A stretch of 64,000 nucleotides of DNA from Candidatus Omnitrophota bacterium. Lineage in GTDB: Bacteria > Omnitrophota > Gorgyraeia > JAFGHF01. A program made the translations under genes and the position numbers. Position 1 is the stretch's first letter; the number at the start of each line of letters is the position of its first letter. The stretch spans positions 892,064 to 956,063 of the forward strand of contig CP070837.1 of NCBI GenBank assembly GCA_020341815.1, written 5' to 3'. The notes beneath the pieces are model-generated. The model did not search any database. It saw nothing but the letters and a program-made list of their open reading frames with translations, and was not told the origin of the DNA. Of this stretch, positions 911 through 52,228 are shown piece after piece.

Positions 911-2209
911 ATGTGGGCACGAAAATATACAAAATGCATAGAATGCGGAACAACAGAAATACCTCACTTTAGTAAAGGGCGCTGCAGAAGATGCTGCCAT
1001 AGGATTAGAGATAATCTGAGGATAGATAGATTAGAAATTAATAAAAGAATCGGCAGAGGTCAAAAGAAAAGATACGCATTGAAAAATAACATCAGAAATC
1101 AAATAACCAAAGATATATTAAGTGATTTATATTGTTATAGAAAAATGTCTTTCGGAGACATAGCAAAGCAATACAACTGCTCAAGAGCGTATATATTAAA
1201 GCTATGTAAATTATATAGTATTCCTATCAGAAATAAGTCCGAAGCAAGATATTTAGCACTAAAACAAGACAAGCTTCCTTTTTGTTACCACAAATTGAAT
1301 GAACAATTCTTTAAGACTTGGACTAAAGAAATGGCATATGTCCTTGGTTTACTTTATGCAGATGGCAATATGCACAAAAACAAGTCAAGCTTTTCTTTAA
1401 GCTTGAAAGAAAAAGATTTTTTAGAGCGGATTAGAAATAGCTTAGAAAGCACACATCCCATAAAGAAGAGCAAAGTCCAGGAACTCTATCATTTAACTAT
1501 CGGAAGCGGCAAAATGATTGAAGATTTGCTGAAATTAGGCTTTATCCCGAGAAAAAGCCTAAAAATCAAGTTCCCAGACATGCCAATTGCCTATATTTCC
1601 CACTTTATAAGAGGGTATTTTGATGGTGACGGAAGTATAATAAAAAAGAATGATAGCAATGTCTATAAGGCCTCTATTGTTACCGGGTCGGAAAAATTCA
1701 TTTCCAGCATAAAAATGCATTTGGAAAGACTTGTGGGTGTAAGCGTACAAAGAATCAATAAACACAAAACAGCAAACGCTTATTTCATTCATTACCACAG
1801 AAGGAGCGATATCGAGAAACTCTATAAATATTTTTATGACGAGTATACAATAAGCAATAAATTATACTTATCTAGGAAACTTTTAAAGTTTCAAGAAGCC
1901 ATTAGCAATTATAAGAAATGGGGCCTTAATCAGCTAAGGTCTTCCAGACACAACGCTAAATATAGCGCTAAGGTAAAACTGGAAAAAAATCAAACAAATG
2001 CCACAATCGAAAAGTTAATCGCCTACTGGTGTTCTTACCGCCAACTTGGCAGCAATATATCTGATTTAGCTAGATATGTCAAAGTCTCAAGGGATACGGC
2101 ATATCGTTGGTTAAACAGGAAAGCTCAGCCTAAGGAGCAAAAATTACAGCTGATTCAAGAATGGTTAAGGCAAAGGCCGAATCATCAACAAACACTTATT
2201 TATAAGTAG
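911..2209 (+). CDS. LAGLIDADG-type (double-motif) homing-endonuclease-like protein with an N-terminal C4 zinc ribbon, an internal HTH and a C-terminal AlpA/Xis-like HTH
   Basis: CxxC-x14-CxxC at the N-terminus. Two LAGLIDADG-like motifs (YVLGLLYADGNM and FIRGYFDGDGSI) about 95 aa apart. The C-terminal VSRDTAYRWLNRK...IQEWL resembles the AlpA/excisionase HTH_17 family. Confidence 0.6.
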   Translation: MWARKYTKCIECGTTEIPHFSKGRCRRCCHRIRDNLRIDRLEINKRIGRGQKKRYALKNNIRNQITKDILSDLYCYRKMSFGDIAKQYNCSRAYILKLCKLYSIPIRNKSEARYLALKQDKLPFCYHKLNEQFFKTWTKEMAYVLGLLYADGNMHKNKSSFSLSLKEKDFLERIRNSLESTHPIKKSKVQELYHLTIGSGKMIEDLLKLGFIPRKSLKIKFPDMPIAYISHFIRGYFDGDGSIIKKNDSNVYKASIVTGSEKFISSIKMHLERLVGVSVQRINKHKTANAYFIHYHRRSDIEKLYKYFYDEYTISNKLYLSRKLLKFQEAISNYKKWGLNQLRSSRHNAKYSAKVKLEKNQTNATIEKLIAYWCSYRQLGSNISDLARYVKVSRDTAYRWLNRKAQPKEQKLQLIQEWLRQRPNHQQTLIYK

Positions 2210-2233
2210 AAAGGGGAGGGTCATCGGCTAAAT

Positions 2234-2449
2234 ATGCCTCAAAATAGCTCAGAATTGGCCATATTTGAACGACTAAGGGAACATTTAGGGTTCTACAAAT
2301 ACGCGGATGTAGAACATCAATCGGTGACTGCTTTAGCCAAATATTGCAGGGTTTCAAGGAGAACTATATATAACTGGTTGAACAGCAAGACAAAGCCAAA
2401 ACAGGCTAAATTGAAGTTGATTAAGGAATGGATAGATAGTCGAATATAG
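2234..2449 (+). CDS. AlpA/Xis-like HTH protein, paralog of the C-terminus of the preceding gene
   Basis: VSRRTIYNWLNSKTKPKQAKLKLIKEWI is about 60% identical to the C-terminal 40 aa of the 432 aa protein. Good RBS (AGGGGAGGG). Confidence 0.6.
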   Translation: MPQNSSELAIFERLREHLGFYKYADVEHQSVTALAKYCRVSRRTIYNWLNSKTKPKQAKLKLIKEWIDSRI

Positions 2450-2459
2450 TATAAGGCTA

Positions 2460-2491
2460 ATAGGGCTAAAAATGGCCCTATTTTTTAATTT
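2460..2491 (+). terminator. Rho-independent terminator ending the short plus-strand gene block
   Basis: ATAGGGC-taaaaatg-GCCCTAT stem followed by TTTTTTAATTT. Confidence 0.5.
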
Positions 2492-2649
2492 CCCCCTATT
2501 TCACAGTCCTATCCATAATATATCTTATGTTAACTTCCCAATATCGGCTAAATAGGCATAACCATAGGAGAAATAGGCAGTTAAGTAATATGTAGGATAT
2601 TCTGTGGATAAACAGTTAAACGGGATATCTTGCCCCAAAAGATAAAAAA

Positions 2650-3010
2650 AGGGCCTCATTTAATTGAGTTTACTTGAACTTACTTTTGGAGGGAAACTTA
2701 CTTCCAATTAACCTTGCTTACTGCTAAAGACCCACTTAATCAGGCTTAACCAAAATTACCGCAAAAGTGTAACTTTTCTCAAGTTAACCTGGCTTACTTT
2801 TGCAAGCCAACTTAACTAAATTTCGTTACACTTACTCAAAGGACCCTATTTTACTTAGTGTTACTTTTTAGGGCTGACTTACTTATCCTTACTCAATGAG
2901 CCACGAATTACCTGTATTTACTTTTTTGAGGAAAGTTACCTGAAGTTACTCGGTGGGTTTGTTTTTACCGGAAGTTACTTGATGGGCCTATTGTTACCTA
3001 GAGTTACCTC
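2650..3010. repeat. Degenerate tandem array of about 25 TTAC(T/C)T / GTTAC(C/T) units (iteron-like) in a convergent intergenic region
   Basis: Direct reading shows GAGTTTACTT, GAACTTACTTTT, GAAACTTACTTCC, AAGTTACCTG, AAGTTACTCGG, AAGTTACTTGATG, GTTACCTAGAGTTACCTC and similar units. No ORF of 60 aa or more on either strand. Confidence 0.65.
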
Positions 3011-3014
3011 TCCC

Positions 3015-3473
3015 CTATCGCAGCGAAAATATCCTTACTCTTTCTGAACCCATATTATCTGAGTAATCGAAATCGCTGACCCAGAGGCGCACCTCTTTTT
3101 CTTGTTTCAAAGTAAAGTCTAAAGTTGCACCCACTTGACCTTCTTTTAAGGCCTGTAAAACCTCGTTTTCGGCATCGGCCTGGGAAGCTACTTTTGGGCT
3201 TGGTTCTACATATAACGTGCCTAAATTAGGCTGGTCTTGTCCGCCCAGGCAATCCGTACCTACGCATAGGCTGTAAAGCCAGCTGTAATTGGGGTGAATG
3301 GGGAAAAATAGCGCCACCGCTCCCCCGGCTGCCTCAGCGCGGTAATTGCCTTTGGGTAAGGTTATGGTTATGCCTTCGGCTTTCTCTGCCGGAACGGTAA
3401 TTGTCTTATCATACGCATAAGCAGCCGTTGAAAGCACAAGATATAACAACAGCGCAAAACTCAAAGTTTTCAT
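3015..3473 (-). CDS. Small secreted hypothetical protein
   Basis: Signal peptide MKTLSFALLLYLVLSTAAYA. RBS AAGGAG. No recognisable family. Confidence 0.6.
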   Translation of the reverse strand: MKTLSFALLLYLVLSTAAYAYDKTITVPAEKAEGITITLPKGNYRAEAAGGAVALFFPIHPNYSWLYSLCVGTDCLGGQDQPNLGTLYVEPSPKVASQADAENEVLQALKEGQVGATLDFTLKQEKEVRLWVSDFDYSDNMGSERVRIFSLR

Positions 3474-3490
3474 CTTTGTTCTCCTTCTTA

Positions 3491-3580
3491 CTCACTGAAA
3501 TCACTGAGATTATTACACTGAAGCCACTGAGACTTTATTCAGTGTTCTCAGTGTTGCTATTCAGTGTTCTCAGTGTCTCT
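3491..3580. repeat. CACTGA-rich hairpin element, copy 1 (second copy at 29101-29188)
   Basis: About 85% identical to the copy at 29101-29188. It contains direct repeats CACTGAGAACACTGAATA and their inverted complements, and overlaps the last 13 codons of the giant gene. Confidence 0.7.
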
Positions 3581-6500
3581 TGATTGATATAGTAAGTCTT
3601 ATCCTCTGTGGTTATTCTCCATACCGGGTAAAATGGTGAAGTGGTAAGCTCAGGTGAATAGACAAGCTCAGCCTTAATTTCAGCGGGCTCTTCTTCACTC
3701 TGGGCCAATACCTTCTCTATGGCTTCCTCTTTGCTAATCTGGATAAACCTTACCGGCTCATCCACCCAGGAGGCCTGTTTAAAGTAGCCCTCTTCCCTAT
3801 CAATGATTATGGCAGCATAGCTTAAGAACTGCCCCTGGAAGAAGTTGTCAAAAGGAACGAGGTAATAGTCCTTGCCTGCCTTATCCAGTCTTTGGACAGG
3901 GATAAAGCTTCTGGCAATAGAGCCCTGGATGCTTTGGGTGAACTTCTCGTCCGTAAGAAGCGAAGGGTCGATTATCTCTTTCCAGTTTATCCGGGAAGTC
4001 GCTTCGTTTTCCGGTTTGAAGATATTTAAGAGGTCTTCCTCTATGGTGTAAGAGATTAGCTCCTGCTCTTCATTAAGATTAACCACCAAGGCCCTGTCTA
4101 AAAGGTGCTTCTTGACAGGGTCGGTACTTTCTCCTGAGAGATAATCAGCTATCCTGACCAGTTCCCGGGTAGATTCATTTATTCGAGGTTCGGCTAAAGA
4201 GACCTCAGCATCACTTGGTTCAGAGGGCGGCTCAGCTACCTGAAGGTATTTGCCCTTATAATCATCTTCGGCCGTAAGAGGCAGTAGCATTGTAGCCTGG
4301 CATTCGCCAGCTGTGAGATAGTTATCCTGGCCTATGCCTTGGCCTTGCGGGTCAGTCAGCCAGAGGCCGTAGACCGTAAAGTTGCTAAGGTCTGAGAGCC
4401 GATGGTAACGGCTATGCGGCTCAAAGGGATAGGGGTTCATATCACAGGCTGCACCGTTTATCACCAGCCAGTGCCCGTATGTTCCGTAGGCAGGCACTGC
4501 AGCTGGCGTGTAGGGCTCTGCTACTAGGTCGGTTTCATCCTGGTAATTGTGCCAATCTTCCTTTGTGACAGGATAGGCTATCCAATGAGTGATGTCTCTT
4601 AGGTATTCCTTGAATTGGTCGGGTTCATACTCCTCAATGCCAAAGTTGTATCCATAGTTAGAACGACCTCCAGCTGGAGCATCACCTTCACCCAAGTTGT
4701 CATAATAATCAAAATGCCCCAAGGCATAGTCTATAGCATGAGGGTCCATTTCATCAAGGGAGGCTTTGTTGTAGGGATGGCCGTATTCATAGATCTCAAG
4801 CTGTGAGGGGGTATCATCTTCAGGACGCATCAGGTCTATAATCATCTGAGCGCTGGCTGCGCCTGATGAGGCAAAGTTATAAGGCTCAGGGAGTAACTCT
4901 TCGGCGTAATACTCAGGCAAGTCTATATGCAGAACCCAGCCTTTAAAGACTGAGATAGAGTCTTCGCCTTCGTTACCTGCTGCGTCTGTAGCAATAACCT
5001 TGACGATATTCCTCTGTCCTTCCCCTTCTATAGTTACGCCGGATGCAGAGAATGTCCCGTCACCCATATTGTCTGCCGATGAGTAATTTGTGTTAGCTCC
5101 TGTTACCTCTATTTCAACAGTTGCAGTATCATCATCTATCGTGCCTGATATGTCTATCAAGACATCATTAACTCCGGAATTATTAGCCGGATTGGTGATG
5201 GTAACCTGAGGTGCGGTCCTGTCAATGGTAAAGGAGACGCTGCCTGAGGAGCTATTGCCGGCCTCATCAGTAGCAGTTAAGGTAATAGTATAGTCTCCTT
5301 CTTCGGTATATGTATAAGTAGGAGGAAGATCATTATCACTGGTAACAACAATCTTATCCCCACTTGAACGGTCATCCTCTACTGTATAAGTTAAGGTAAC
5401 ATCCTGATTGGTCGGAGTAGATACAGGGTCAATACTGATTGTGGGTGGGGCGGTATCCGGTGAGTTCTCTAACTCCACTGTTATGCTCTGCCATGGAGAT
5501 TGATTTCCCGCTGCATCTATTGCCCGGGCTTCAAATGTTAGCGTTGAGCCGGGAGCTAAGGTGTCTGTCTGGACCAGCCCTGCCACAAAAGACCAATTGC
5601 TTATATCTTCTATGGTGACCGACACTCCTGCGTCTTCTCCATTTATCTTCGTCTCTATGGATTCCAATCCTGAATCATCTGTGGCAGTGCCGGAAAAGCT
5701 TAATGAAGTTCCTATTTGAATCTTTGCTCCGTCTTCCGGATAAGTTATAGCAACAACCGGAGGTGCGATATCTACATTGTTTACGGTTATAACGATTGTT
5801 TCCTGATTACTCCTAAGAAGTTCTTTATCGTATGCCCAGCAGGTCAATCGATAGTCTCCTCCTGCCTGGTCATATGTTGGTGTCCAACGAACAACACCTG
5901 CTTCAAACACGGCTCCTATTGGTACATCTACCCCTGCATTTTCCCATCCGTACCATACTTCCTCTCCATCGGGATCGCTGGCGGAAGGCGTAATAACTAA
6001 CTCCTGATTTTCATCTATTGTGCGATTTCCTATAGGATTTAAGATAGGCGCACGATTGACATCATTTACGGTAATCGTTACTTCTTGAGAATCAATAAAA
6101 CTGCCGTCCGAGACTGTAACTGTTACTTTATGCACTCCGGCATCATCGAATGTTGTGACATAGGTTTGCTCAATCATCCATCCAGAATAGCTATAGGTTA
6201 AAATGTCTTCTTCATCGGGGTCGGTAGCAGAAGGCGTAATAGTTATAGTCTGACCCTCAGTTACGGTTATATCGGCTATTTCATTCAGAACCGGCGGATG
6301 ATTATCGGTGAAGATAGCCTTATAATGATATCCCATATCTACCTGGTTTATATCAGGCTGAGCATTTGTACGGGTAGTATAGTTATAATTAAAGCCAAGA
6401 TTAATTGCTGCATCACTTCCTGCATCTACACAGGGTGAATATTTGTCAAGATAATATTGTCCCTGCGGTCCCTCCACAAAAAGCGGGTACATAAAGATGT

Positions 6501-9775: not shown

Positions 9776-10138
9776 TTAGATGCTTTTTTGGCGGTAATAG
9801 GAATAGACCCGGCCTACATCAAGGGGGTCAATGGTAATGAATTTTATACCAGTTTCATGCAAATTAATGCTTTGACCGGCTCTTTCGATTATTCCATAAG
9901 GCTTGGTCCAGACAACCTCACCCACGCCTCTAATGGCCCTCTGGGGATTGTCCGGAACGGTTATCTCCACTTCCAGTATTGTGCCTGCCTGGAGCTTCTC
10001 GGTTAAACAAACCCCCATTCCCCCGCCTCCGATATTCTGGGGCAGGGTTTCGATCTTTTCTCTATCCCGGCCCTGCACAGCATAGCGCACATTGGCAATA
10101 CCACCAAGCCGATGAAAGACTCTTCTATCTTTAGACAT
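9776..10138 (-). CDS. PilZ-domain protein (c-di-GMP receptor)
   Basis: RRVFHR (RxxxR) and NIGGGGMGV (D/NxSxGG-type) motifs. Confidence 0.8.
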   Translation of the reverse strand: MSKDRRVFHRLGGIANVRYAVQGRDREKIETLPQNIGGGGMGVCLTEKLQAGTILEVEITVPDNPQRAIRGVGEVVWTKPYGIIERAGQSINLHETGIKFITIDPLDVGRVYSYYRQKSI

Positions 10139-10150
10139 AATAACACCTCA

Positions 10151-10495
10151 TTATCTGGTATGGTAAAACTTTACCAGATGGCTGCCTTCAAAAAAAAGAT
10201 GCTGGGTTTCTGCAAGATAATCTACATTTATAGGCAAATTGGGGTAACGACCGTGATAAATCCATTCTTCCTGCACCATGCCCTGGGCATCGCTCTTGAC
10301 TACATTAACTATATCGGGGTCGCCCCACAAGGAGCGCACCTTCTCCTTGGTCATTCCTGTACGTAACGGACTTTCTCCTAATGGCTGGCGCATTATATCT
10401 TCGGGCGTAGGCGGGCTAATTTCGCTGCAGCCGGCAGAAAACAGCGCAAGAGCTAATCCTAAAAAGATTACGAGTTTATTCAGACTAAACCCCAT
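10151..10495 (-). CDS. bamE: BamE/SmpA-OmlA-like outer-membrane lipoprotein
   Basis: Lipobox FSAGC, then a GMTKEKVRSLWGDP motif typical of BamE. Confidence 0.55.
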   Translation of the reverse strand: MGFSLNKLVIFLGLALALFSAGCSEISPPTPEDIMRQPLGESPLRTGMTKEKVRSLWGDPDIVNVVKSDAQGMVQEEWIYHGRYPNLPINVDYLAETQHLFFEGSHLVKFYHTR

Positions 10496-10988
10496 TACCG
10501 CGCTCCCTCCTCTGGTTAATAAAACTGCCTAAGACAGCCTCATCTTGCGGCTCTACTTTAGTAAACTTAATTCCTGCGTTAAATAATTTTTTATCATTTC
10601 CTTCTGCACCAGGATTACCTGAGGCCTCTTTTATCCAGACTATCTCTCCTTGAGCAATGATAGTCTTCTCATTCTGCGGCAGGTTAAACTGAAGTTCCAG
10701 AAGCGTTCCGGGAAACAGCTTCTCAGTCAACCCTATACCTATGCCCCCTAAGCTAATATCCCGGCTTACAGCATCTCGCTTTTTAGCCGCATCATTGGAT
10801 AGAACTTCATAATGAACTTCAATCTCAGCGCTTACACGGGGAGTCTTCCTTCTCTCGGCTCCTTTATCCCAGACACCGTTCAGCGTTGCGCTCTTTTTAG
10901 CCAGCTTTCTTTTTCTGCGGTCGTCCTGATAAACTGCAATTAATATAAGGATTAAAAATACAATTAACCCTACCTGAACTATAATCAT
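10485..10988 (-). CDS. Membrane-anchored PilZ-domain protein
   Basis: N-terminal TM helix. RRKTPR and DISLGGIGIG motifs. Confidence 0.75.
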   Translation of the reverse strand: MIIVQVGLIVFLILILIAVYQDDRRKRKLAKKSATLNGVWDKGAERRKTPRVSAEIEVHYEVLSNDAAKKRDAVSRDISLGGIGIGLTEKLFPGTLLELQFNLPQNEKTIIAQGEIVWIKEASGNPGAEGNDKKLFNAGIKFTKVEPQDEAVLGSFINQRRERGNGV

Positions 10989-13701: not shown

Positions 13702-14097
13702 TTAGCATTCCTGCGCTTCCTTATTATTAAAATTAGGGGATTGAAGTATGCATTGCTTAATCTTTTCTTTGTCTTTTTTGGATAAATCGGTAAAGAAAAT
13801 GGCTATATTCTGATAGGCGGTGTCTGCCTCTTTCATAATTACGGGTTCGGACCTTACCACCACTCCGTTGCATTTAACTTTTTCGGTGTTAAGCTTATTT
13901 CTGCGATAGATGGGAAGAAGCAAAATAAGGCTTATTTTGGACATCAGGGGCAGGGGTTTGTCTATGCGGCAATAGACTCCCGAACAGCTTATATTTCTGG
14001 TTTCGGTAATTACGTCTAAGCCTTTTTTGGAAATCTTAAGCGGCAGGATAGTTTGTGTACGCTGATATTTCCTTCTCTCCAGTACTGCTCTAGACAT
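13702..14097 (-). CDS. PilZ-domain protein
   Basis: RRKYQR and NISCSGVYC motifs. Confidence 0.7.
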   Translation of the reverse strand: MSRAVLERRKYQRTQTILPLKISKKGLDVITETRNISCSGVYCRIDKPLPLMSKISLILLLPIYRRNKLNTEKVKCNGVVVRSEPVIMKEADTAYQNIAIFFTDLSKKDKEKIKQCILQSPNFNNKEAQEC

Positions 14098-15845: not shown

Positions 15846-15997
15846 AGTCAATAATGTATGATTCCCACGAGCCGATAAAGCTAGAGGCTTTATCTCACGC
15901 ACCTCCCATGCTCCGGCAGCCCAACTACCATCTCGGAGAATGCCTGTATGTTTATTTCGACAACCTTAAAGGGAGATGTTTTTTTGGCTCCCTTTTC

Positions 15998-16092
15998 TAC
16001 ACGGCGTCCTTTTCATCTACGGCATTTCTTCCGATTTAGGCTTGCGGCTTTGCGTCCCAGCCTTTCGACTGGTTTGCCTTTATCGGCTCTAT
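15998..16092 (-). ncRNA. c-di-GMP-I (GEMM) riboswitch aptamer, copy 1
   Basis: Minus-sense AAGGCAAACCAGUCGAAAGGCUGGGACGCAAAGCCGCAAGCCUAAAUCGG... This matches the GGCAAACC-P2(GNRA GAAA)-GGGACGCAAAGCC-GCCUAAA core of V. cholerae Vc2. Confidence 0.7.
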
Positions 16093-17445: not shown

Positions 17446-19107
<1,662 letters not shown>

Positions 19108-19435: not shown

Positions 19436-19462
19436 TTAGCACTCTCAAGGTATGAGTGCTAA
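19436..19462. promoter_or_regulatory. CIRCE operator (HrcA binding site) upstream of groES
   Basis: Perfect TTAGCACTC-N9-GAGTGCTAA. Confidence 0.9.
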
Positions 19463-27495: not shown

Positions 27496-28584
27496 TTATT
27501 GGGGTAGCGCAAGCCCCTGCGCCTTCAAAAAGGCATTAACGACTCTGGGATCAAATTGCGTGCCGGAACACCTTTTTAATTCGCTACAGGCCTCTTCGCT
27601 GGAAAAAGCTTTGCGGTAGGGACGGCGGGAAACCATAGCTTCATAGGCATCGGCCACAGCCAAAATTCGCGAGCCGATAGGAATCTTTCTATATCTCATA
27701 TTTTTATCGGGATATCCACCGCCTGCGTAACGGGCATGGTGATGCAAAATTATGGGCACCAGATTACTTAAGCTGCCGATATTATTGATTATTTTCGCAC
27801 CTACCCGGGGATGTCTATAGATACTCCTCCACTCGGTTTTACTGAGCTTCCCGGGCTTTCTTAGTGTATTGATATCAACGCAGACTTTACCTAAATCGTG
27901 AAGATAGCCCGCATATTGCAGGGCGTCTTTCTGTAGCTCAGACAGCCTCAATTCAGAGGCAATCTCCAAAGCCAGGGCCGCTACTTTTTCTGAGTGGCCG
28001 GCGGTGCAGGAGTCTTTGGCATCCAGGGCATTTGCCAGAAATTTTATGGCGCCGATATAATTCTCGCGCGCCTTTTCATATAATCTGGCATTAGAAATAG
28101 AAACTGAAGCACCCGCGGCAAAAATGGAAAGAAGCTTGACGTCCTCTTTATGAAAATGATGAGGAGCTTCGCTGTAAACACTCAAGACCCCGAAGGCCTT
28201 ACCTCTGTCCACCAAAGGCACCGATAGAAGCGAACGCAAATTTTCCTTCTGAGCAATAAAGGCATGTTGATAGCGGGAATCTTTAAATAAGTCCTTGACG
28301 ATATAGTAGTGATTTTCCTTTACTACCCTGCCGGCAATACTTTCACCGACTTTTATGCCGCCCTTACGCAGGTGAGAACGCTTATCTAACCCATAATGAG
28401 CCTTGAGAATTAATTCCTTCTTATTTCTATGAAGTAATCTTAAGGAACACCCTTCAGCCTGCATAATTTGGCAGGCCTTTTTGGTTATCAGCTTCAATAC
28501 CTGACTCAACTTCAAGCTTGAGGTGATAGATTTATTTATCTCATAAAGCGCTGTAAACTCTTCAGTCTGATTATTTCGAGCCAT
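27496..28584 (-). CDS. GAF-domain HD-GYP phosphodiesterase (c-di-GMP hydrolase family)
   Basis: N-terminal GAF. HD motifs (HSEKVA, LHDLGKV) and HHHARYAGGGYPD. Confidence 0.8.
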   Translation of the reverse strand: MARNNQTEEFTALYEINKSITSSLKLSQVLKLITKKACQIMQAEGCSLRLLHRNKKELILKAHYGLDKRSHLRKGGIKVGESIAGRVVKENHYYIVKDLFKDSRYQHAFIAQKENLRSLLSVPLVDRGKAFGVLSVYSEAPHHFHKEDVKLLSIFAAGASVSISNARLYEKARENYIGAIKFLANALDAKDSCTAGHSEKVAALALEIASELRLSELQKDALQYAGYLHDLGKVCVDINTLRKPGKLSKTEWRSIYRHPRVGAKIINNIGSLSNLVPIILHHHARYAGGGYPDKNMRYRKIPIGSRILAVADAYEAMVSRRPYRKAFSSEEACSELKRCSGTQFDPRVVNAFLKAQGLALPQ

Positions 28585-41558: not shown

Positions 41559-42569
41559 TCACTTATTGCTTACCCCTCTTAAAGCCAGACCGCAACCTAC
41601 CGCCAGCGTCGGAGAAACCTCATTCAACTTGGCGCTGTCGATGCCTGTAGAGTTGCCAAGCAATTTCTCCAGAGGATTCCATGTCTTAATCTCTCTGCCT
41701 AACTCGGCTTTAAAGAACTCAAGCAACCCAGGGATTTGAGCCCCTTCGCCGCTAATATAAACTACGCCTACCTGTCTTTCGAATTCACTTTCATAATAAT
41801 CAATAGAAACCCTTATCTCGCGAATTAGATTTGTCAAAAGCGGCTTTATCGTCTCAAAAAGCCCTTTTTCTTTGTTTTCCTCCTGCTGCTGCTGTTGTTG
41901 TAACAGTAGGAAATCTTCCAAGACAGAGAGGTCGCGGCTAAAAAATGGCATCTCTCCCTGAAGGATGCCTATATTCACCAAATCGAATTCCAGATTAATC
42001 AGGGCCGCCACATCCTCTTCTTTTAGCTGTGGGCCATTTACCTGAAAACAGTTTATTAAAGAAAAGATATTTACGTCGATAATATTGGGCTCAAGCCCGG
42101 CCTCGTGAATAAGCTCGACGAACTCCATTATTGCCTGCTTTTTAGCGGCCACCAGGAAAACTTTCATCCTATTGGAAGAACTCGCCACCCGAGGCGTAAG
42201 GATATGGTAATCCAGAACCACCTCTTCCATCTTAAAAGGGATATATTGTTGTGCTTCGTATGCCAGGGCCTGCCCGAGTTCCTCTCGACTCATCTTGGGT
42301 AAATTGATATACCTGACGATAACCGATTCACCCGAAACACCGATATTTACGGGATGAGCGGAAATCCCTTTTTCCTGGGCAATCTTTTTCAATGCCTCAA
42401 GCTTTTCTTCTCTGTTCTGTGGGGATTTAAGCGCAACACTGGCAAAATCAACAAGCTTAGGCCCGCCGGCAGAAGCGGTTAATTTCACCATATTGATTCG
42501 CCGCTTGCCTATATCTAACCCTATAGAAATAGCGGCCTTTCTCTTGAATATCAGATCTATCGCTTTCAA
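41559..42569 (-). CDS. pilM: Type IV pilus assembly protein PilM (actin-like ATPase fold)
   Basis: ISIGLDIGKRRINMVKL start motif and an FtsA/actin-like fold. Confidence 0.85.
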   Translation of the reverse strand: MKAIDLIFKRKAAISIGLDIGKRRINMVKLTASAGGPKLVDFASVALKSPQNREEKLEALKKIAQEKGISAHPVNIGVSGESVIVRYINLPKMSREELGQALAYEAQQYIPFKMEEVVLDYHILTPRVASSSNRMKVFLVAAKKQAIMEFVELIHEAGLEPNIIDVNIFSLINCFQVNGPQLKEEDVAALINLEFDLVNIGILQGEMPFFSRDLSVLEDFLLLQQQQQQEENKEKGLFETIKPLLTNLIREIRVSIDYYESEFERQVGVVYISGEGAQIPGLLEFFKAELGREIKTWNPLEKLLGNSTGIDSAKLNEVSPTLAVGCGLALRGVSNK

Positions 42570-42594
42570 ATTTACTTATCCTTACTTATTTTAG

Positions 42595-50344: not shown

Positions 50345-51766
50345 TTAAGAAAGGACAATTTTATTTTGTCCTCCGTTCTTGGATTTTTCGGTATAATGCA
50401 ATGCCCTGTTGATCAATTCTACCGCCGTCCTTCCGTCCACAGGAACAGCGCTGATGCCTGCACTTAACGTAAGAGAAATGCCGCCTTTAAGGGCAGCCTG
50501 CGTTAGCTTGCGTCTTTTCATCTCGCTGCATACACCTTCGGCAACATTCAATGACTGCTCTTTATTTTTCTCCGGCAGAAGCACAGCAAACTGGTGGTCG
50601 GAAAATCTGGCTGCTTTATCGATGTCTCCAGTAGCATCTTTTAAAGTCTGGGCCATTTTCTTTAAAGTGACCTCGGCTGCTTGCGCCCCCGCAACATCGC
50701 GATAGCGTTCAAAGTTAGCCACCTCAAAAATAAGAAAAGAACACGGTCTCTGGTAGGAAATCGCCCTTCTGATCTCCTCTTCTAAGCGGGTGCGTATATA
50801 GTTTTCGTTATAGAGCCCGGTAAGCTCATCGCGCACGTTTAACTCTTCTGTCTTGCGCAAAAGGATATCGTTTTCTACGGCCACAGCTACCTGTTTGGCA
50901 AAGACCCCTATCAACTCTTTCTCATCTTTGGCAAAGACAAAGTTCTCCGTGTTATTGCCCACCCCTAAAAGGCCGATGATGGTGCCAAAAGAAGTAACTG
51001 GCACAAGCAGCATATTCTTTGTTTGTAAAAGTTTTCTCAAATCTCCATCTGCGGCCTTCAGTTTATTCTGCTTATCTATAACTAAAGGCGTGGGATGGGC
51101 AAACAGCTTACCCAGGGGCCCCTGGCCGACTTTAACCTTGATGCGTCCTATCTCGGTGGCCTCTATGTTTACCTTCGCGCGCATAAGCAATTCGCCTGAT
51201 TCCTCCTCCCGAAACACAATAAAGGCACCTCCGGACTCCAGTTGAGAAAGCTTCTCTACAATTAAGCCAAAGACCTCGTCTAATTTAGCGTTGGCGGTCA
51301 TAAGGTTACCGATCTGCAATAGCGCAGAAAGGGCAAAGACCTTTTTATTGATTTCCATATTTATCTGCTTAATCTTCTCTCCGTAGGAATGAAGCTCGGA
51401 CATATTTTCCTTAAGTCTTCTGGAGAGCCGGTTTAAGGAACCGCTCAGCTCACCCACTTCATCCTCTGCCTCTATAGTTGCCTCTTCAACCAGTCTTCCT
51501 TCGGCAATCCCCTTGGCATAGGCACTGATGCTGGCAACAGGATAAACAATCTTTCTGGTCAGGTAGTAGCCCATGAGCATAAGGAAAATAGTAATGATAA
51601 AAATTAAGGAAATATTCCACAGGCTATCTATCGTAGGGAAGATATAATAGATAATCAGATAGCCGCAAACCAGCATCGGGATAACAGACATAAGAGCAAA
51701 GGCCACAACCAGCTTATGTTTTATACCCCTGCGTGTTAAGGATAGGTTTTTAAGTAGGTCTCTCAT
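50345..51766 (-). CDS. Membrane HAMP-GAF protein with a degenerate GGDEF domain (GGDEF replaced by SDHQF; likely non-catalytic)
   Basis: TM helices, HAMP, GAF, then a GGDEF-fold (DELTGLYNENY...RFSDHQFAVLLPE). Confidence 0.75.
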   Translation of the reverse strand: MRDLLKNLSLTRRGIKHKLVVAFALMSVIPMLVCGYLIIYYIFPTIDSLWNISLIFIITIFLMLMGYYLTRKIVYPVASISAYAKGIAEGRLVEEATIEAEDEVGELSGSLNRLSRRLKENMSELHSYGEKIKQINMEINKKVFALSALLQIGNLMTANAKLDEVFGLIVEKLSQLESGGAFIVFREEESGELLMRAKVNIEATEIGRIKVKVGQGPLGKLFAHPTPLVIDKQNKLKAADGDLRKLLQTKNMLLVPVTSFGTIIGLLGVGNNTENFVFAKDEKELIGVFAKQVAVAVENDILLRKTEELNVRDELTGLYNENYIRTRLEEEIRRAISYQRPCSFLIFEVANFERYRDVAGAQAAEVTLKKMAQTLKDATGDIDKAARFSDHQFAVLLPEKNKEQSLNVAEGVCSEMKRRKLTQAALKGGISLTLSAGISAVPVDGRTAVELINRALHYTEKSKNGGQNKIVLS

Positions 51767-52117: not shown

Positions 52118-52200
52118 CGTCTGGCAACCCAGCCATCCCTAACTCTAAGGACCTGTTGGCTTTGCGCCCCCCGACTTTCGCCGGGGTTTGCCTTTTTCAA
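52118..52200 (-). ncRNA. c-di-GMP-I (GEMM) riboswitch aptamer, copy 2
   Basis: Minus-sense GGCAAACC-CCGGC-GAAA-GUCGGGG-GGCGCAAAGCC-...-GGGUUGCC. P1 closing GGCAA/UUGCC and P2 with GNRA loop match GEMM-I. Confidence 0.7.
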
Positions 52201-52228
52201 ACGTATTTTGTTACTTTGTACAACCAGA

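What the first reader, a model, noticed from the sequence alone, without database searches (positions are those of the whole stretch)
2650..3010. About 360 bp degenerate TTAC(T/C)T / GTTACC tandem array in a convergent intergenic region
More than 25 copies of a short motif (consensus roughly A-A-G-T-T-A-C-Y-T) recur every 10-20 nt with no ORF. Some are direct repeats (GAGTTTACTT...GAACTTACTT...GAAACTTACTT) and some inverted (GTAAC...GTTAC).

The region lies between two convergent gene ends, so it is not a classical promoter. The density resembles iterons, arm-type sites or a centromere-like array, but it could also be a slippage-prone simple-sequence tract. It is not CRISPR-like: the units are too short and there are no unique spacers.
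Basis: seen in the sequence. Interest (0 to 1): 0.5.

Follow-up and report, generated by a model that had tools for sequence, protein, structure and literature searches.

The report
One-directional TTAC repeat array beside dif
The repeat tract is real: about 20 TTAC motifs, all pointing one way, lie right next to the site (dif) where this Omnitrophota bacterium separates its chromosome copies at the end of replication, and relatives have the same layout, which suggests an undescribed DNA-protein structure at the replication terminus.

Summary
The array is real (window 2667-3010). It has 20 TTAC on the + strand against 1 GTAA. Dinucleotide shuffles give 6.3±2.1. It is ordered, not a loose tract: TTAC pairs 10 bp apart, six 28-29-bp units (2848-3010), and a 5' part of ~38-bp units.

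A canonical 28-bp dif site (2508-2535) lies 134 bp to the left, at a gene-strand and GC-skew switch, so this is the replication terminus of an Omnitrophota chromosome.

In many Omnitrophota loci the order is fixed: small HTH gene, dif, a DnaA-box-like TGTGGAWAA 65-68 bp from the XerD arm, then TTACYN5TTACY 21 bp after the box start. One subclade (ten loci here) expanded that pair into arrays of 15-63 TTAC (290-971 bp), always on the same side and strand. Both TTAC cores are intact in 111 of 115 unit slots, while the bases between them vary.

I found no RNA structure, Rfam match, ORF, phage or plasmid match, second dif, or genome-wide strand skew of the motif.

Best reading: a dif-linked array of protein-binding direct repeats that forms a nucleoprotein filament on the XerD side of dif. 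It probably acts as a barrier or platform for DNA translocases, or as a Xer accessory element. The binding protein and the function are inferred, not shown.

The parts
2234..2449 (+). Small (71 aa) helix-turn-helix gene, the last + strand gene before dif. It is conserved in this position in the array-bearing clade.
   Evidence: Pfam gives only weak HTH_3/HTH_23/HTH_17 matches. Homologues sit 42-90 bp upstream of dif in L021, L035, L059, L121, L173 and others. A profile search finds 491 proteins, the 120 listed all 60-100 aa, and every named one is from Omnitrophota. All six loci picked only by this protein have dif just downstream. The AF2 model (pLDDT 80) has four helices and only weak Cro/C1/XRE-type matches.
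2459..2482 (+). Terminator-like hairpin plus T-run that ends the HTH gene.
   Evidence: Terminator scan: 10-pair stem AATAGGGC...GCCCTATT followed by TTTTAATTT.
2508..2535 (+). dif, the chromosome dimer resolution site: CCTATCCATAA / TATATC / TTATGTTAACT. XerC arm 2508-2518, centre 2519-2524, XerD arm 2525-2535.
   Evidence: By my comparison with the sequences quoted in PMC3025954, it matches B. subtilis dif at 21 of 28 positions and E. coli dif at 20 of 28. It is the only such site in the 64 kb, allowing up to 5 mismatches in the 21-mer. It lies at the switch from + genes (10 kb on the left, from L001) to - genes (61 kb on the right) and at the cumulative GC-skew peak. In 125 loci that share the 21-mer, genes are mostly + on the left in 48 of 58 and mostly - on the right in 70 of 79. 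GC skew is positive on the left in 87% and negative on the right in 77%.
2558..2584 (.). Conserved ATAAC ... GTTAA inverted-repeat element between dif and the box.
   Evidence: TAA...TTA is conserved at fixed columns in 66 non-redundant dif flanks. Only one arm position shows weak pairing excess (44 of 66 paired against 33.8 expected), so a hairpin is not supported.
2603..2611 (-). TGTGGATAA, which is a perfect DnaA-box consensus (TTATCCACA) on the - strand, 67 bp from the end of the XerD arm.
   Evidence: A TGTGGAWAA-like 9-mer starts 65-68 bp after dif in 72 of 125 loci. It is also present in 8 of 9 loci picked by protein homology; L242 has the variant TGTGCAAAA. That this matches the DnaA-box consensus is from established knowledge; DnaA binding was not tested.
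2670..2684 (+). First TTAC pair (TTACTTGAACTTACT). It corresponds to the conserved TTACYN5TTACY element of array-less relatives.
   Evidence: In 40 of the 72 box-bearing loci the pair starts exactly 21 bp after the box start, which is +88/89 from dif. In the window it is displaced to +134.
2698..2837 (+). 5' part of the array: irregular units of about 38 bp (TTACY-N12-CTTAAY-N4-STTAACC). It holds 6 TTAC and 5 TTAAC/TTAAT variants.
   Evidence: Positions are. The same spacing signature (10, 18, 20, 38, 38 ...) occurs in L021, L035, L059, L121, L139 and L243-L247.
2848..3010 (+). 3' part of the array: six tandem units of 28-29 bp, each rAAyTTACyNRNANTTACTyNNNGGG, with the two TTAC exactly 10 bp apart.
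   Evidence: Tandem Repeats Finder reports period 29. The number of such units differs between genomes: 3 to 27 slots.

Best explanation
The tract is a one-directional array of protein-binding direct repeats that belongs to the dif locus at the replication terminus of an Omnitrophota chromosome.

Shown:
- It lies 134 bp from the XerD arm of a canonical dif site.
- It is the expanded form of a TTAC-N6-TTAC element. In many Omnitrophota loci that element sits at a fixed distance from dif, behind a DnaA-box-like 9-mer.
- A subclade carries arrays of 15-63 copies, always on the same side and strand.
- The TTAC cores are conserved while the bases between them are not.

Inferred mechanism:
- A small sequence-specific DNA-binding protein occupies each TTAC, two protomers head-to-tail per helical turn, and spreads along the 0.3-1 kb array.
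- The candidate protein is the HTH encoded just across dif. In array-less relatives a DUF134 protein occupies that gene slot.
- The resulting asymmetric filament sits on the XerD side of dif, which is the side FtsK needs.
- It most likely acts as a barrier or platform that stops, unloads or positions DNA translocases (replisome, SMC complexes, FtsK) at dif. That would fix where termination and dimer resolution take place.

Likelihoods:
- Functional DNA-level binding array coupled to dif: about 0.65.
- The barrier/platform role specifically: about 0.35.
- A stereospecific Xer accessory role: about 0.2.

The confidence value given for this explanation (0.55) refers to the general claim with the barrier/platform role as the leading sub-hypothesis.
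For: - Enrichment and strand bias: TTAC 20 against 6.3±2.1 in shuffles; GTAA 1.
- Geometry: pairs exactly 10 bp apart (one helical turn) and units of 28-29 bp.
- dif identity and terminus position.
- Fixed architecture, dif, 65-68 bp, TGTGGAWAA, TTACYN5TTACY starting 21 bp after the box start: box in 72 of 125 loci and pair in 40. All three DUF134-picked loci show it too.
- All nine loci picked only by protein homology have dif at a gene convergence. Four of the six HTH-picked loci carry arrays of 21-63 TTAC with 0-2 GTAA.
- Selection on the motif: both TTAC are intact in 111 of 115 regular unit slots across ten genomes. Their flanking 117-aa protein is only about 61-82% identical to the window's. 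Information content is 2 bits at the cores and at most 1 bit elsewhere, except T at +14 with 1.43 bits.
- The paired motif is nearly confined to this locus: one other match in 64 kb.
- Precedents: the dif-surrounding intergenic DNA of Thermococcus kodakarensis, between convergent genes, is an SMC boundary made by a TrmBL2 filament and does not depend on Xer or dif. XerD at dif-like XDS sites unloads SMC in bacteria (PMC11840125). FtsK needs the DNA next to the XerD site (PMC2673442). Accessory sequences and proteins flank the plasmid Xer sites cer and psi.
Against: - No binding protein is identified.
- The neighbouring HTH is predicted to be a four-helix Cro/XRE-like fold (best Foldseek E about 0.4). 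That fold usually reads inverted repeats.
- One array locus (L139) has no homologue of the HTH gene upstream of dif.
- Most Omnitrophota manage with 2-4 TTAC copies, so the large array is not needed for dif to work.
- In the array clade the dif-to-array distance is not fixed (118-262 bp). This argues against a stereospecific role with the Xer core.
- All copies point one way and lie on one side of dif, unlike the two opposed groups of a classical fork trap.
- The + strand folds somewhat better than mononucleotide shuffles (z = -3.4), so transcription is not excluded.
- Copy numbers come mostly from short-read MAGs, which can mis-size tandem arrays.
- There are no experimental data of any kind.
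Confidence: 0.55

Rival explanations
1. Xer accessory (arm-type) element. The TTAC repeats, the DnaA-box-like site and the inverted repeat bind accessory proteins that wrap the DNA next to dif into a defined synapse. That synapse activates XerCD recombination or gives it direction, as PepA with ArgR or ArcA does at the plasmid sites cer and psi.
For: - In array-less relatives the box and the TTAC pair sit within ±1-2 bp of a fixed distance from the dif core. Such rigidity is typical of stereospecific recombination complexes.
- The conserved non-coding module right of dif in those relatives is about 160-200 bp. That is the size I recall for cer/psi accessory sequences.
- Direct repeats one helical turn apart are the site type of OmpR-family regulators such as ArcA, the psi accessory factor (own knowledge; the cer/psi proteins are cited).
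- A small DNA-binding protein gene is always encoded beside dif.
Against: - In this window and the whole array clade the fixed distance is lost (118-262 bp), and the array is 290-971 bp, far longer than any known accessory region.
- The module lies on the XerD side. By my recollection, cer and psi accessory sequences lie on the XerC side.
- Chromosomal dif sites are not known to use accessory sequences.
- No PepA, ArgR or ArcA link was tested.
Confidence: 0.2
2. Only the ancestral TTAC pair is functional. The long array is a by-product of replication slippage or unequal exchange at the terminus and adds no function.
For: - The number of 3' units varies widely between genomes: 3-27 slots.
- Most Omnitrophota have only 2-4 copies.
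- Tandem units of 28-29 bp are prone to slippage (established knowledge).
Against: - Both TTAC are intact in 111 of 115 slots while neighbouring positions differ between adjacent units. Homogenisation by gene conversion therefore cannot explain the conserved cores.
- The array is present, on the same side and strand, in all ten loci of the clade even though much of the surrounding intergenic DNA is too diverged to align.
- The 5' part keeps the same unit order in all of them.
Confidence: 0.1
3. Non-coding RNA gene. A transcript carrying many UUACYU motifs acts as a sponge for an RNA-binding protein, or is processed into short units.
For: - dif contains a TATAAT hexamer, and TGGTATAAT in L035, L059 and L121, which could fire rightwards.
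- The + strand folds more stably than mononucleotide shuffles (z = -3.4, against -1.8 for the - strand).
- The motif is strictly strand-specific.
Against: - No Rfam match at E up to 10 that means anything.
- No promoter-like site is predicted in 2200-3600.
- RNAalifold finds no consensus structure in 66 non-redundant dif flanks.
- There is no helix-like covariation within 61 units.
- Exact 10-bp pairing, and fixed distances to dif in relatives, are DNA-helix features.
- The genes to the right differ between loci.
Confidence: 0.07
4. Array that orients or loads FtsK (KOPS-like) and steers FtsK towards the XerD side of dif.
For: - The array is polar and always on the XerD side, where FtsK must contact XerD.
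- Read on the - strand, ARGTAA points towards dif.
Against: - The motif shows no chromosome-wide strand skew. Left replichore: TTAC 42, GTAA 40. Right replichore: 267 against 301. Pooled relatives: 165 against 153 on the left and 153 against 151 on the right.
- The motif differs from all known KOPS/SRS motifs, which are G-rich 8-mers (own knowledge).
Confidence: 0.05
5. Remnant of a mobile replicon or a Xer-exploiting integrative element (iterons plus DnaA box plus a dif-like attachment site).
For: - A DnaA-box-like 9-mer next to direct repeats resembles a theta-replicon origin (own knowledge).
- Variable cassettes (LAGLIDADG-HTH, or LexA with a Y-family polymerase) sit beside dif.
Against: - There is only one dif-like site per locus, so no flanking pair.
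- No rep, par or phage genes are present.
- Flanking genes are syntenic housekeeping genes.
- No similarity in plasmid or phage collections.
- The array type is absent from viral contigs.
- The locus is a terminus by skew and gene orientation.
Confidence: 0.03

Closest known systems
Accessory sequences of the plasmid Xer sites cer (ColE1) and psi (pSC101), bound by PepA with ArgR or ArcA
   Same: Non-coding DNA directly beside a XerCD core site. In array-less relatives it carries protein-type motifs at fixed distances from the core, in a module of about 160-200 bp. Direct repeats one helical turn apart are the site type of OmpR-family proteins such as ArcA.
   Different: This is a chromosomal dif. 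The module lies on the XerD side rather than the XerC side (the latter from memory). The window's array is 344 bp (up to 971 bp in relatives) and its distance to dif is variable. There are no ARG or ArcA boxes, and the accessory proteins are unknown.
dif-surrounding boundary element of Thermococcus kodakarensis (TrmBL2 filament stalls Smc-ScpAB), and the XerD/XDS SMC-unloading sites of Bacillus subtilis (PMC11840125)
   Same: A large intergenic region between convergent genes that contains dif. The sequence around dif, not dif itself, builds a nucleoprotein roadblock at the terminus. An artificial XDS array blocks SMC translocation.
   Different: The archaeal element has no reported repeat motif and is bound by a non-specific nucleoid protein. 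XDS sites are dispersed dif-like half-sites. Here there is a dense, one-directional array of a specific 4-bp core. No Hi-C or ChIP data exist for Omnitrophota.
Replication terminator sites (Tus-Ter in E. coli, RTP-Ter in B. subtilis)
   Same: Located at the terminus. The sites are asymmetric and therefore potentially polar. A small DNA-binding protein gene lies beside them, as tus lies beside TerB and rtp beside TerI (own knowledge).
   Different: No similarity to the Ter consensus sequences. All copies are on one side and in one orientation, instead of two opposed groups. There are tens of contiguous copies rather than dispersed single sites.
Tandem OmpR/PhoB-type operators (e.g. ompF F1-F2-F3, PhoB/PhoP boxes)
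   Same: Head-to-tail half-sites 10-11 bp apart. The OmpR F1 site TTTACTTTTGGTTACATATT (from memory) itself contains TTAC-N6-TTAC.
   Different: Those are promoter-proximal and have 2-6 half-sites. This array is at a gene convergence with no downstream gene, has up to 63 half-sites and a 28-29-bp superperiod.
Plasmid iterons and centromere arrays (parC of R1, pSK41)
   Same: Arrays of short direct repeats that build a large nucleoprotein complex. A DnaA-box-like site is nearby, as in iteron origins.
   Different: No rep or par genes. The context is a chromosomal terminus. The unit is composite (two cores plus a G-rich tail).

Membership tests
dif (XerCD chromosome dimer resolution site), for window 2508-2535 | 28 bp made of two 11-bp imperfectly palindromic arms around a 6-bp centre, similar to experimentally confirmed dif sites | tested here: met
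   CCTATCCATAA-TATATC-TTATGTTAACT. By my count it matches B. subtilis dif at 21 of 28 positions and E. coli dif at 20 of 28, using the sequences quoted in PMC3025954.
dif (XerCD chromosome dimer resolution site), for window 2508-2535 | Single copy, located at the replication terminus (GC-skew switch and convergence of gene orientation) | tested here: met
   Unique in the 64 kb. It lies at the skew peak and the +/- gene switch. The same holds across 125 loci. The position opposite oriC could not be checked.
dif (XerCD chromosome dimer resolution site), for window 2508-2535 | XerC/XerD (and FtsK) encoded in the genome, and recombination at the site | not tested
   None of the window's annotated ORFs has a Phage_integrase or FtsK domain. 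The rest of the 1.55-Mb genome was not available.
Xer accessory sequences (cer/psi type) | Binding motifs at a fixed distance and helical phase from the core site | tested here: inconclusive
   Met in array-less relatives: box at +65-68, pair at +88/89. Not met in the window and the array clade, where the first pair lies at +118 to +262.
Xer accessory sequences (cer/psi type) | About 180 bp on the XerC side, bound by PepA with ArgR or ArcA | tested here: not met
   The module is on the XerD side and the array is 344 bp. The side rule is from memory. Protein binding cannot be tested with these tools.
Plasmid/phage iteron origin | Direct repeats beside a rep gene in a replicon origin, often with a DnaA box | tested here: not met
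   A DnaA-box-like 9-mer is present (2603-2611). There is no rep gene, the context is a terminus, and there is no plasmid or phage similarity.
Centromere-like par site | Repeat array adjacent to parA/parM and adaptor genes | tested here: not met
   No par genes in the window or in relatives' flanks.
Replication fork trap (Ter sites) | Asymmetric sites at the terminus arranged in two opposed groups, and a match to a known Ter consensus | tested here: not met
   Terminus location is met. All copies are in one orientation on one side (GTAA 0-2 per array). No Ter-like consensus was seen on reading. Fork arrest itself cannot be tested with these tools.
KOPS / FtsK-orienting polar sequences | Strong chromosome-wide strand skew that switches at dif | tested here: not met
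   TTAC against GTAA: 42/40 on the left and 267/301 on the right. Pooled relatives: 165/153 and 153/151.
CRISPR array | Repeats of 23-50 bp separated by unique spacers of similar length; cas genes | tested here: not met
   Units are 28-29 bp in total with no spacers, and no cas domains are nearby.
Structured non-coding RNA | Conserved secondary structure with covariation, promoter and terminator, or an Rfam match | tested here: not met
   No meaningful Rfam match. RNAalifold gives an empty consensus on 66 sequences. No helix-like covariation in the units. No promoter-like site.
XDS-type XerD half-sites | Sequence resembling the XerD arm of dif | tested here: inconclusive
   The 5' variants [GC]TTAAC[CT] share 6-7 nt with the outer XerD arm GTTAACT. 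The main core, TTACY, lacks one base, and relatives have TTAAT. The original XDS paper was not available.

The most novel reading that the evidence does not exclude
Omnitrophota have a dedicated terminus-organising module that has not been described before. It consists of a small HTH gene (DUF134 or a Cro-like 70-aa protein), dif, a DnaA-box-like site and TTAC direct repeats. In one clade the repeats have grown into a polar nucleoprotein array of up to 1 kb. That array acts as a natural roadblock or unloading pad for replisomes, SMC complexes or FtsK exactly at the dimer-resolution site. It would be a bacterial counterpart of the archaeal TrmBL2/dif boundary, and a third type of terminus barrier besides Tus-Ter and RTP-Ter.
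Probability: 0.3. Interest if true: 0.8.

Novelty: new variant of a known kind. Interest (0 to 1): 0.62.

Why it matters
Little is known about how bacteria outside the model phyla organise the replication terminus. Fork traps are characterised only in enterobacteria (Tus) and Bacillus (RTP). SMC exclusion from ter is known for MatP and XerD/XDS. Accessory DNA for Xer recombination is known only for plasmid sites.

This locus gives a sequence-defined handle in an uncultured, ultra-small-celled phylum. It has a 28-bp dif with conserved flanking motifs at fixed distances and a candidate binding-protein gene next door. One clade also has a natural array of up to 63 sites.

Because the parts are short and defined, they can be tested outside the organism. 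Options include EMSA or DAP-seq with recombinant proteins, fork-pause and Hi-C assays after transplanting the array, and in vitro Xer reactions.

The result also gives annotators a practical marker for the terminus in Omnitrophota MAGs. It warns that these arrays break or distort short-read assemblies.

Tried and rejected
- Rfam at gathering thresholds on the whole window, and at E up to 10 on 2400-3100: only two c-di-GMP riboswitches elsewhere, and noise in the region.
- Structured RNA: RNAalifold on 66 non-redundant dif flanks gave an empty structure. A unit-level pairing scan showed no nested helix. Fold z-scores were modest.
- Hairpin at the ATAAC/GTTAA inverted repeat: only one of eight arm positions shows weak pairing excess.
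- Other TTACYT-rich bins in the window (about 19000 and 40500): these are coding sequence (groES/EL, a pilin-like gene), so chance.
- The three-unit pattern scan of 185,579 genomes mostly returned 5- and 10-bp microsatellites. Only L020, L021, L035, L059 and L121 are homologous arrays.
- A second class, three 29-bp repeats upstream of a P-loop ATPase gene in Firmicutes and Bacteroidota, shares the geometry but not the context.
- KOPS-like genome-wide skew: absent.
- IMEX or integrated element: no second dif-like site.
- Plasmid and phage BLAST: no match.
- Viral contigs: unrelated tandem repeats only.
- Xis/excisionase-like winged helix for the HTH: the model is all-helical and Cro/XRE-like, with no significant PDB match by sequence or fold.
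- Strain polymorphism from L020 against L139: the difference is an N-gap scaffolding artefact.
- Literature searches for dif-adjacent arrays, for DUF134 with dif, and for XDS details found no description of this module. The XDS paper was not held.
Full report
OBSERVATION

The tract exists where stated. Between the stop of a + strand gene (2234-2449) and the stop of a - strand gene (3015-3473) lies 565 bp of non-coding DNA.

Positions 2667-3010 carry 20 TTAC on the + strand and a single GTAA. In 2000 dinucleotide-preserving shuffles of 2660-3014 the TTAC count is 6.3±2.1 (maximum 14). Seven TTAC-N6-TTAC pairs are present, against 0.11 expected. The bin holding the array has 19 TTAC, against a window mean of 2.3 per 500 bp.

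- The 3' half (2848-3010) is six units of 28-29 bp, each with two TTACY exactly 10 bp apart.
- The 5' half (2670-2837) has spacings 10, 18, 20, 38, 38, 32 and six TTAAC/TTAAT variants.
- Only one copy is inverted.

An independent assembly (L001) is identical over the array.

WHAT SURROUNDS IT

L001 extends the window to the left. About 10 kb of genes lie on the + strand to the left of the array, and 61 kb lie on the - strand to the right. The cumulative GC skew peaks at 2000-3000. The right arm carries housekeeping genes: groESL, argS, mfd, proBA, obg, a type IV pilus operon, mreBCD-rodA and ileS. This is therefore a chromosome, not a mobile element. The small HTH protein is recorded at NCBI from a Candidatus Omnitrophota MAG on a 1.55-Mb contig.

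THE KEY NEIGHBOUR: dif

A genome-wide pattern scan returned mostly microsatellites. It also returned four (with L020, five) loci from Omnitrophota-type MAGs with the same spacing signature as the window. Aligning their flanks exposed one invariant site: NNNNNNNATAATATATCTTATGTTAACT. In the window it is CCTATCCATAATATATCTTATGTTAACT at 2508-2535.

The site has the 11-6-11 layout of dif. By my count it matches the confirmed B. subtilis dif at 21 of 28 positions and the E. coli dif at 20 of 28 (sequences from PMC3025954). It is unique in the window.

A metagenome scan with its 21-mer gave 120 further loci. Oriented by the site:
- Genes are mostly + on the left in 48 of 58 loci and mostly - on the right in 70 of 79.
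- GC skew is positive on the left in 87% and negative on the right in 77%.

I conclude that the site is dif and that the locus is the replication terminus.

A CONSERVED MODULE

In 72 of 125 dif loci a TGTGGAWAA 9-mer starts 65-68 bp after the XerD arm. In the window this is 2603-2611, a perfect DnaA-box consensus on the - strand. In 40 of those 72 loci, TTACYN5TTACY starts exactly 21 bp after the box start, with further TTAC at +119 and +139 in many.

The gene just left of dif is always a small DNA-binding protein:
- In roughly 50 loci it is a DUF134 protein (PF02001, E = 6e-27).
- In 13 loci it belongs to the ~70-aa HTH family of window 2234-2449.

Named members of both families are all from Omnitrophota.

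An independent test picked nine loci by protein homology alone. All nine have dif at a gene convergence. Eight have the box, and L242 has a variant of it.

RNAalifold finds no consensus structure in 66 non-redundant flanks. The small inverted repeat between dif and the box shows almost no pairing covariation. The module therefore looks like a set of protein sites on DNA.

THE ARRAY IS AN EXPANSION OF THAT ELEMENT

Ten loci carry arrays: the window, L021, L035, L059, L121, L139 (the same genome as L020), L243, L244, L245 and L247.
- The arrays are 290-971 bp long, with 15-63 TTAC and 0-2 GTAA.
- They are always on the XerD side and on the same strand.
- The order of 5' units is the same in all, and the number of regular 28-29-bp units varies from 3 to 27 slots.
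- The flanking 117-aa protein is only about 61-82% identical to the window's in five of these loci, and the HTH about 42-57%.
- Both TTAC cores are intact in 111 of 115 regular slots. Information content is 2 bits at the cores and at most 1 bit elsewhere, except T at +14 (1.43 bits).

Adjacent units differ in their non-core bases, so homogenisation cannot explain the conserved cores. Selection on the motif can. (The units were anchored on TTAC pairs, so the 2-bit values are partly by construction. The slot count is the less biased measure.)

In this clade the distance from dif to the first pair is no longer fixed (118-262 bp), although the box stays at about +67.

MECHANISM (INFERENCE)

The following features fit a sequence-specific protein that binds head-to-tail and coats 0.3-1 kb next to the XerD arm:
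- Half-sites one helical turn apart.
- A single orientation.
- Near-restriction of the paired motif to this locus: one other match in 64 kb.
- A fixed relation to dif in relatives.

The XerD side is where FtsK needs adjacent DNA to activate recombination (PMC2673442).

Two kinds of precedent exist. Accessory proteins on DNA beside the Xer cores of cer and psi control recombination. In Thermococcus kodakarensis the intergenic DNA around dif, between convergent genes, forms an SMC boundary through a TrmBL2 filament independently of Xer and dif. In bacteria XerD at XDS sites unloads SMC, and an artificial XDS array blocks SMC translocation (PMC11840125).

The array clade has lost the fixed spacing to the core and gained length. 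I therefore favour a barrier or platform for translocases (replisome, SMC, FtsK) at about 0.35, over a stereospecific Xer accessory role at about 0.2. The ancestral 2-4-copy element may well have the accessory role.

The binder is unknown. The HTH next door is the obvious candidate, but its model (pLDDT 80) is a four-helix Cro/XRE-like fold with only weak matches. L139 also has no homologue of it upstream of dif.

RIVALS TESTED
- KOPS-like motif: no genome-wide strand skew.
- Integrated element or iterons: a single dif, no rep or par genes, no plasmid, phage or viral similarity.
- Non-coding RNA: no structure, promoter or family match, though transcription cannot be excluded.
- Neutral slippage: contradicted by the conserved cores.

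COMPARISON AND NOVELTY

The array works like an accessory, architectural or barrier array at a recombination site or terminus. It fails the membership tests for cer/psi accessory sequences (side, length, spacing), Ter sites (no opposed groups, no consensus), iterons and par sites (no partner genes), KOPS, CRISPR and structured RNAs.

My literature searches found no description of a dif-adjacent repeat array, or of the module of HTH gene, dif, box and TTAC repeats.

I rate it a new variant of a known kind. It is a real, conserved and probably functional element whose protein partner and role are still to be shown.

CAVEATS
- Everything functional is inference.
- Most relatives are short-read MAGs or metagenome contigs, where arrays can be mis-sized.
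- The 125-locus sample was selected on an exact dif 21-mer.
- Several statements rest on my own knowledge, not on a tool result: the side of the cer/psi accessory sequences, the OmpR site sequence, and the adjacency of tus and rtp to their Ter sites.

Noticed in passing
window 911-2209 (+); also L242 4169-5213 and L254 3311-4209: The window ORF is a LAGLIDADG_3 homing-endonuclease-like protein of low GC (0.33). Its C-terminus is a copy of the small HTH encoded next door. LAGLIDADG plus small-HTH cassettes also sit between a DUF134 gene and dif in two other Omnitrophota genomes. This suggests a homing cassette that targets the conserved dif flank, and that the standalone HTH may derive from it.
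   Followed up: partly
window 2603-2611: A perfect DnaA-box consensus (TTATCCACA on the - strand) lies 67 bp from the XerD arm of dif, at the terminus. The position is conserved (65-68 bp) in 72 of 125 dif loci. Why a DnaA-type box would sit at a fixed distance from dif is unexplained.
   Followed up: partly
L035, L121, L244 (left of dif, + strand); L130, L147, L209, L235, L254, L256 (right of dif, - strand): A cassette of a LexA-like repressor, a ~100-aa protein (weak DUF6504 match) and a Y-family polymerase (IMS domains) abuts dif in many Omnitrophota genomes, on either side. It is absent from the window.
   Followed up: partly
L006, L007, L026, L033, L075, L079 and about 25 other genome-contig loci: Firmicutes and Bacteroidota genomes carry exactly three 29-bp direct repeats directly upstream of a ~350-aa P-loop ATPase gene (N-terminus MxNPYxLxFGKxP). 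Each repeat has two TTTAC 10 bp apart plus about 9 bp. The unit geometry matches the Omnitrophota array, but the context is unrelated. It is probably an operator.
   Followed up: partly
window 15912-16088 (-) and 52120-52202 (-): Two c-di-GMP-I riboswitches (69.8 and 59.7 bits). The window also has several PilZ genes (9776-10138, 10485-10988, 13702-14097), a GGDEF protein (50345-51766) and an HD-GYP-like protein (27496-28584).
   Followed up: no
window 3493-3577: Between the start of the 152-aa gene and the stop of the 1783-aa beta-helix/Ig-domain gene there are four CACTGA followed by four TCAGTG. Together they form a long imperfect inverted repeat.
   Followed up: no
window 42572-42586: TTACTTATCCTTACT, identical to 2879-2893, is the only other TTACYN5TTACY match in the window. 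It lies just upstream of the pilM-like ORF 41559-42569. One match is within chance expectation (0.45 per window).
   Followed up: no
window 19436-19462: CIRCE element (TTAGCACTC-N9-GAGTGCTAA) upstream of groES/groEL (groEL is 17446-19089).
   Followed up: no
window 3008-3016; distal array ends in L021, L139, L243, L247: The array ends in a conserved CTCTCCCCT. In the window this overlaps the stop codon of the convergent gene. In L243 and L121 a similar C-rich run forms half of a terminator-like hairpin.
   Followed up: no
L250-L253 (IMG/VR contigs): The exact dif 21-mer occurs in four contigs classed as viral, near the ends of the fetched stretches. They lack the box and the TTAC pair. They could be prophage calls that end at dif, or elements that use Xer.
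   Followed up: no
L020 vs L139: Two records of the same genome differ inside the array only by a run of N with duplicated flanks. This is a scaffolding artefact, and it shows that short-read assemblies break or mis-size these arrays.
   Followed up: yes
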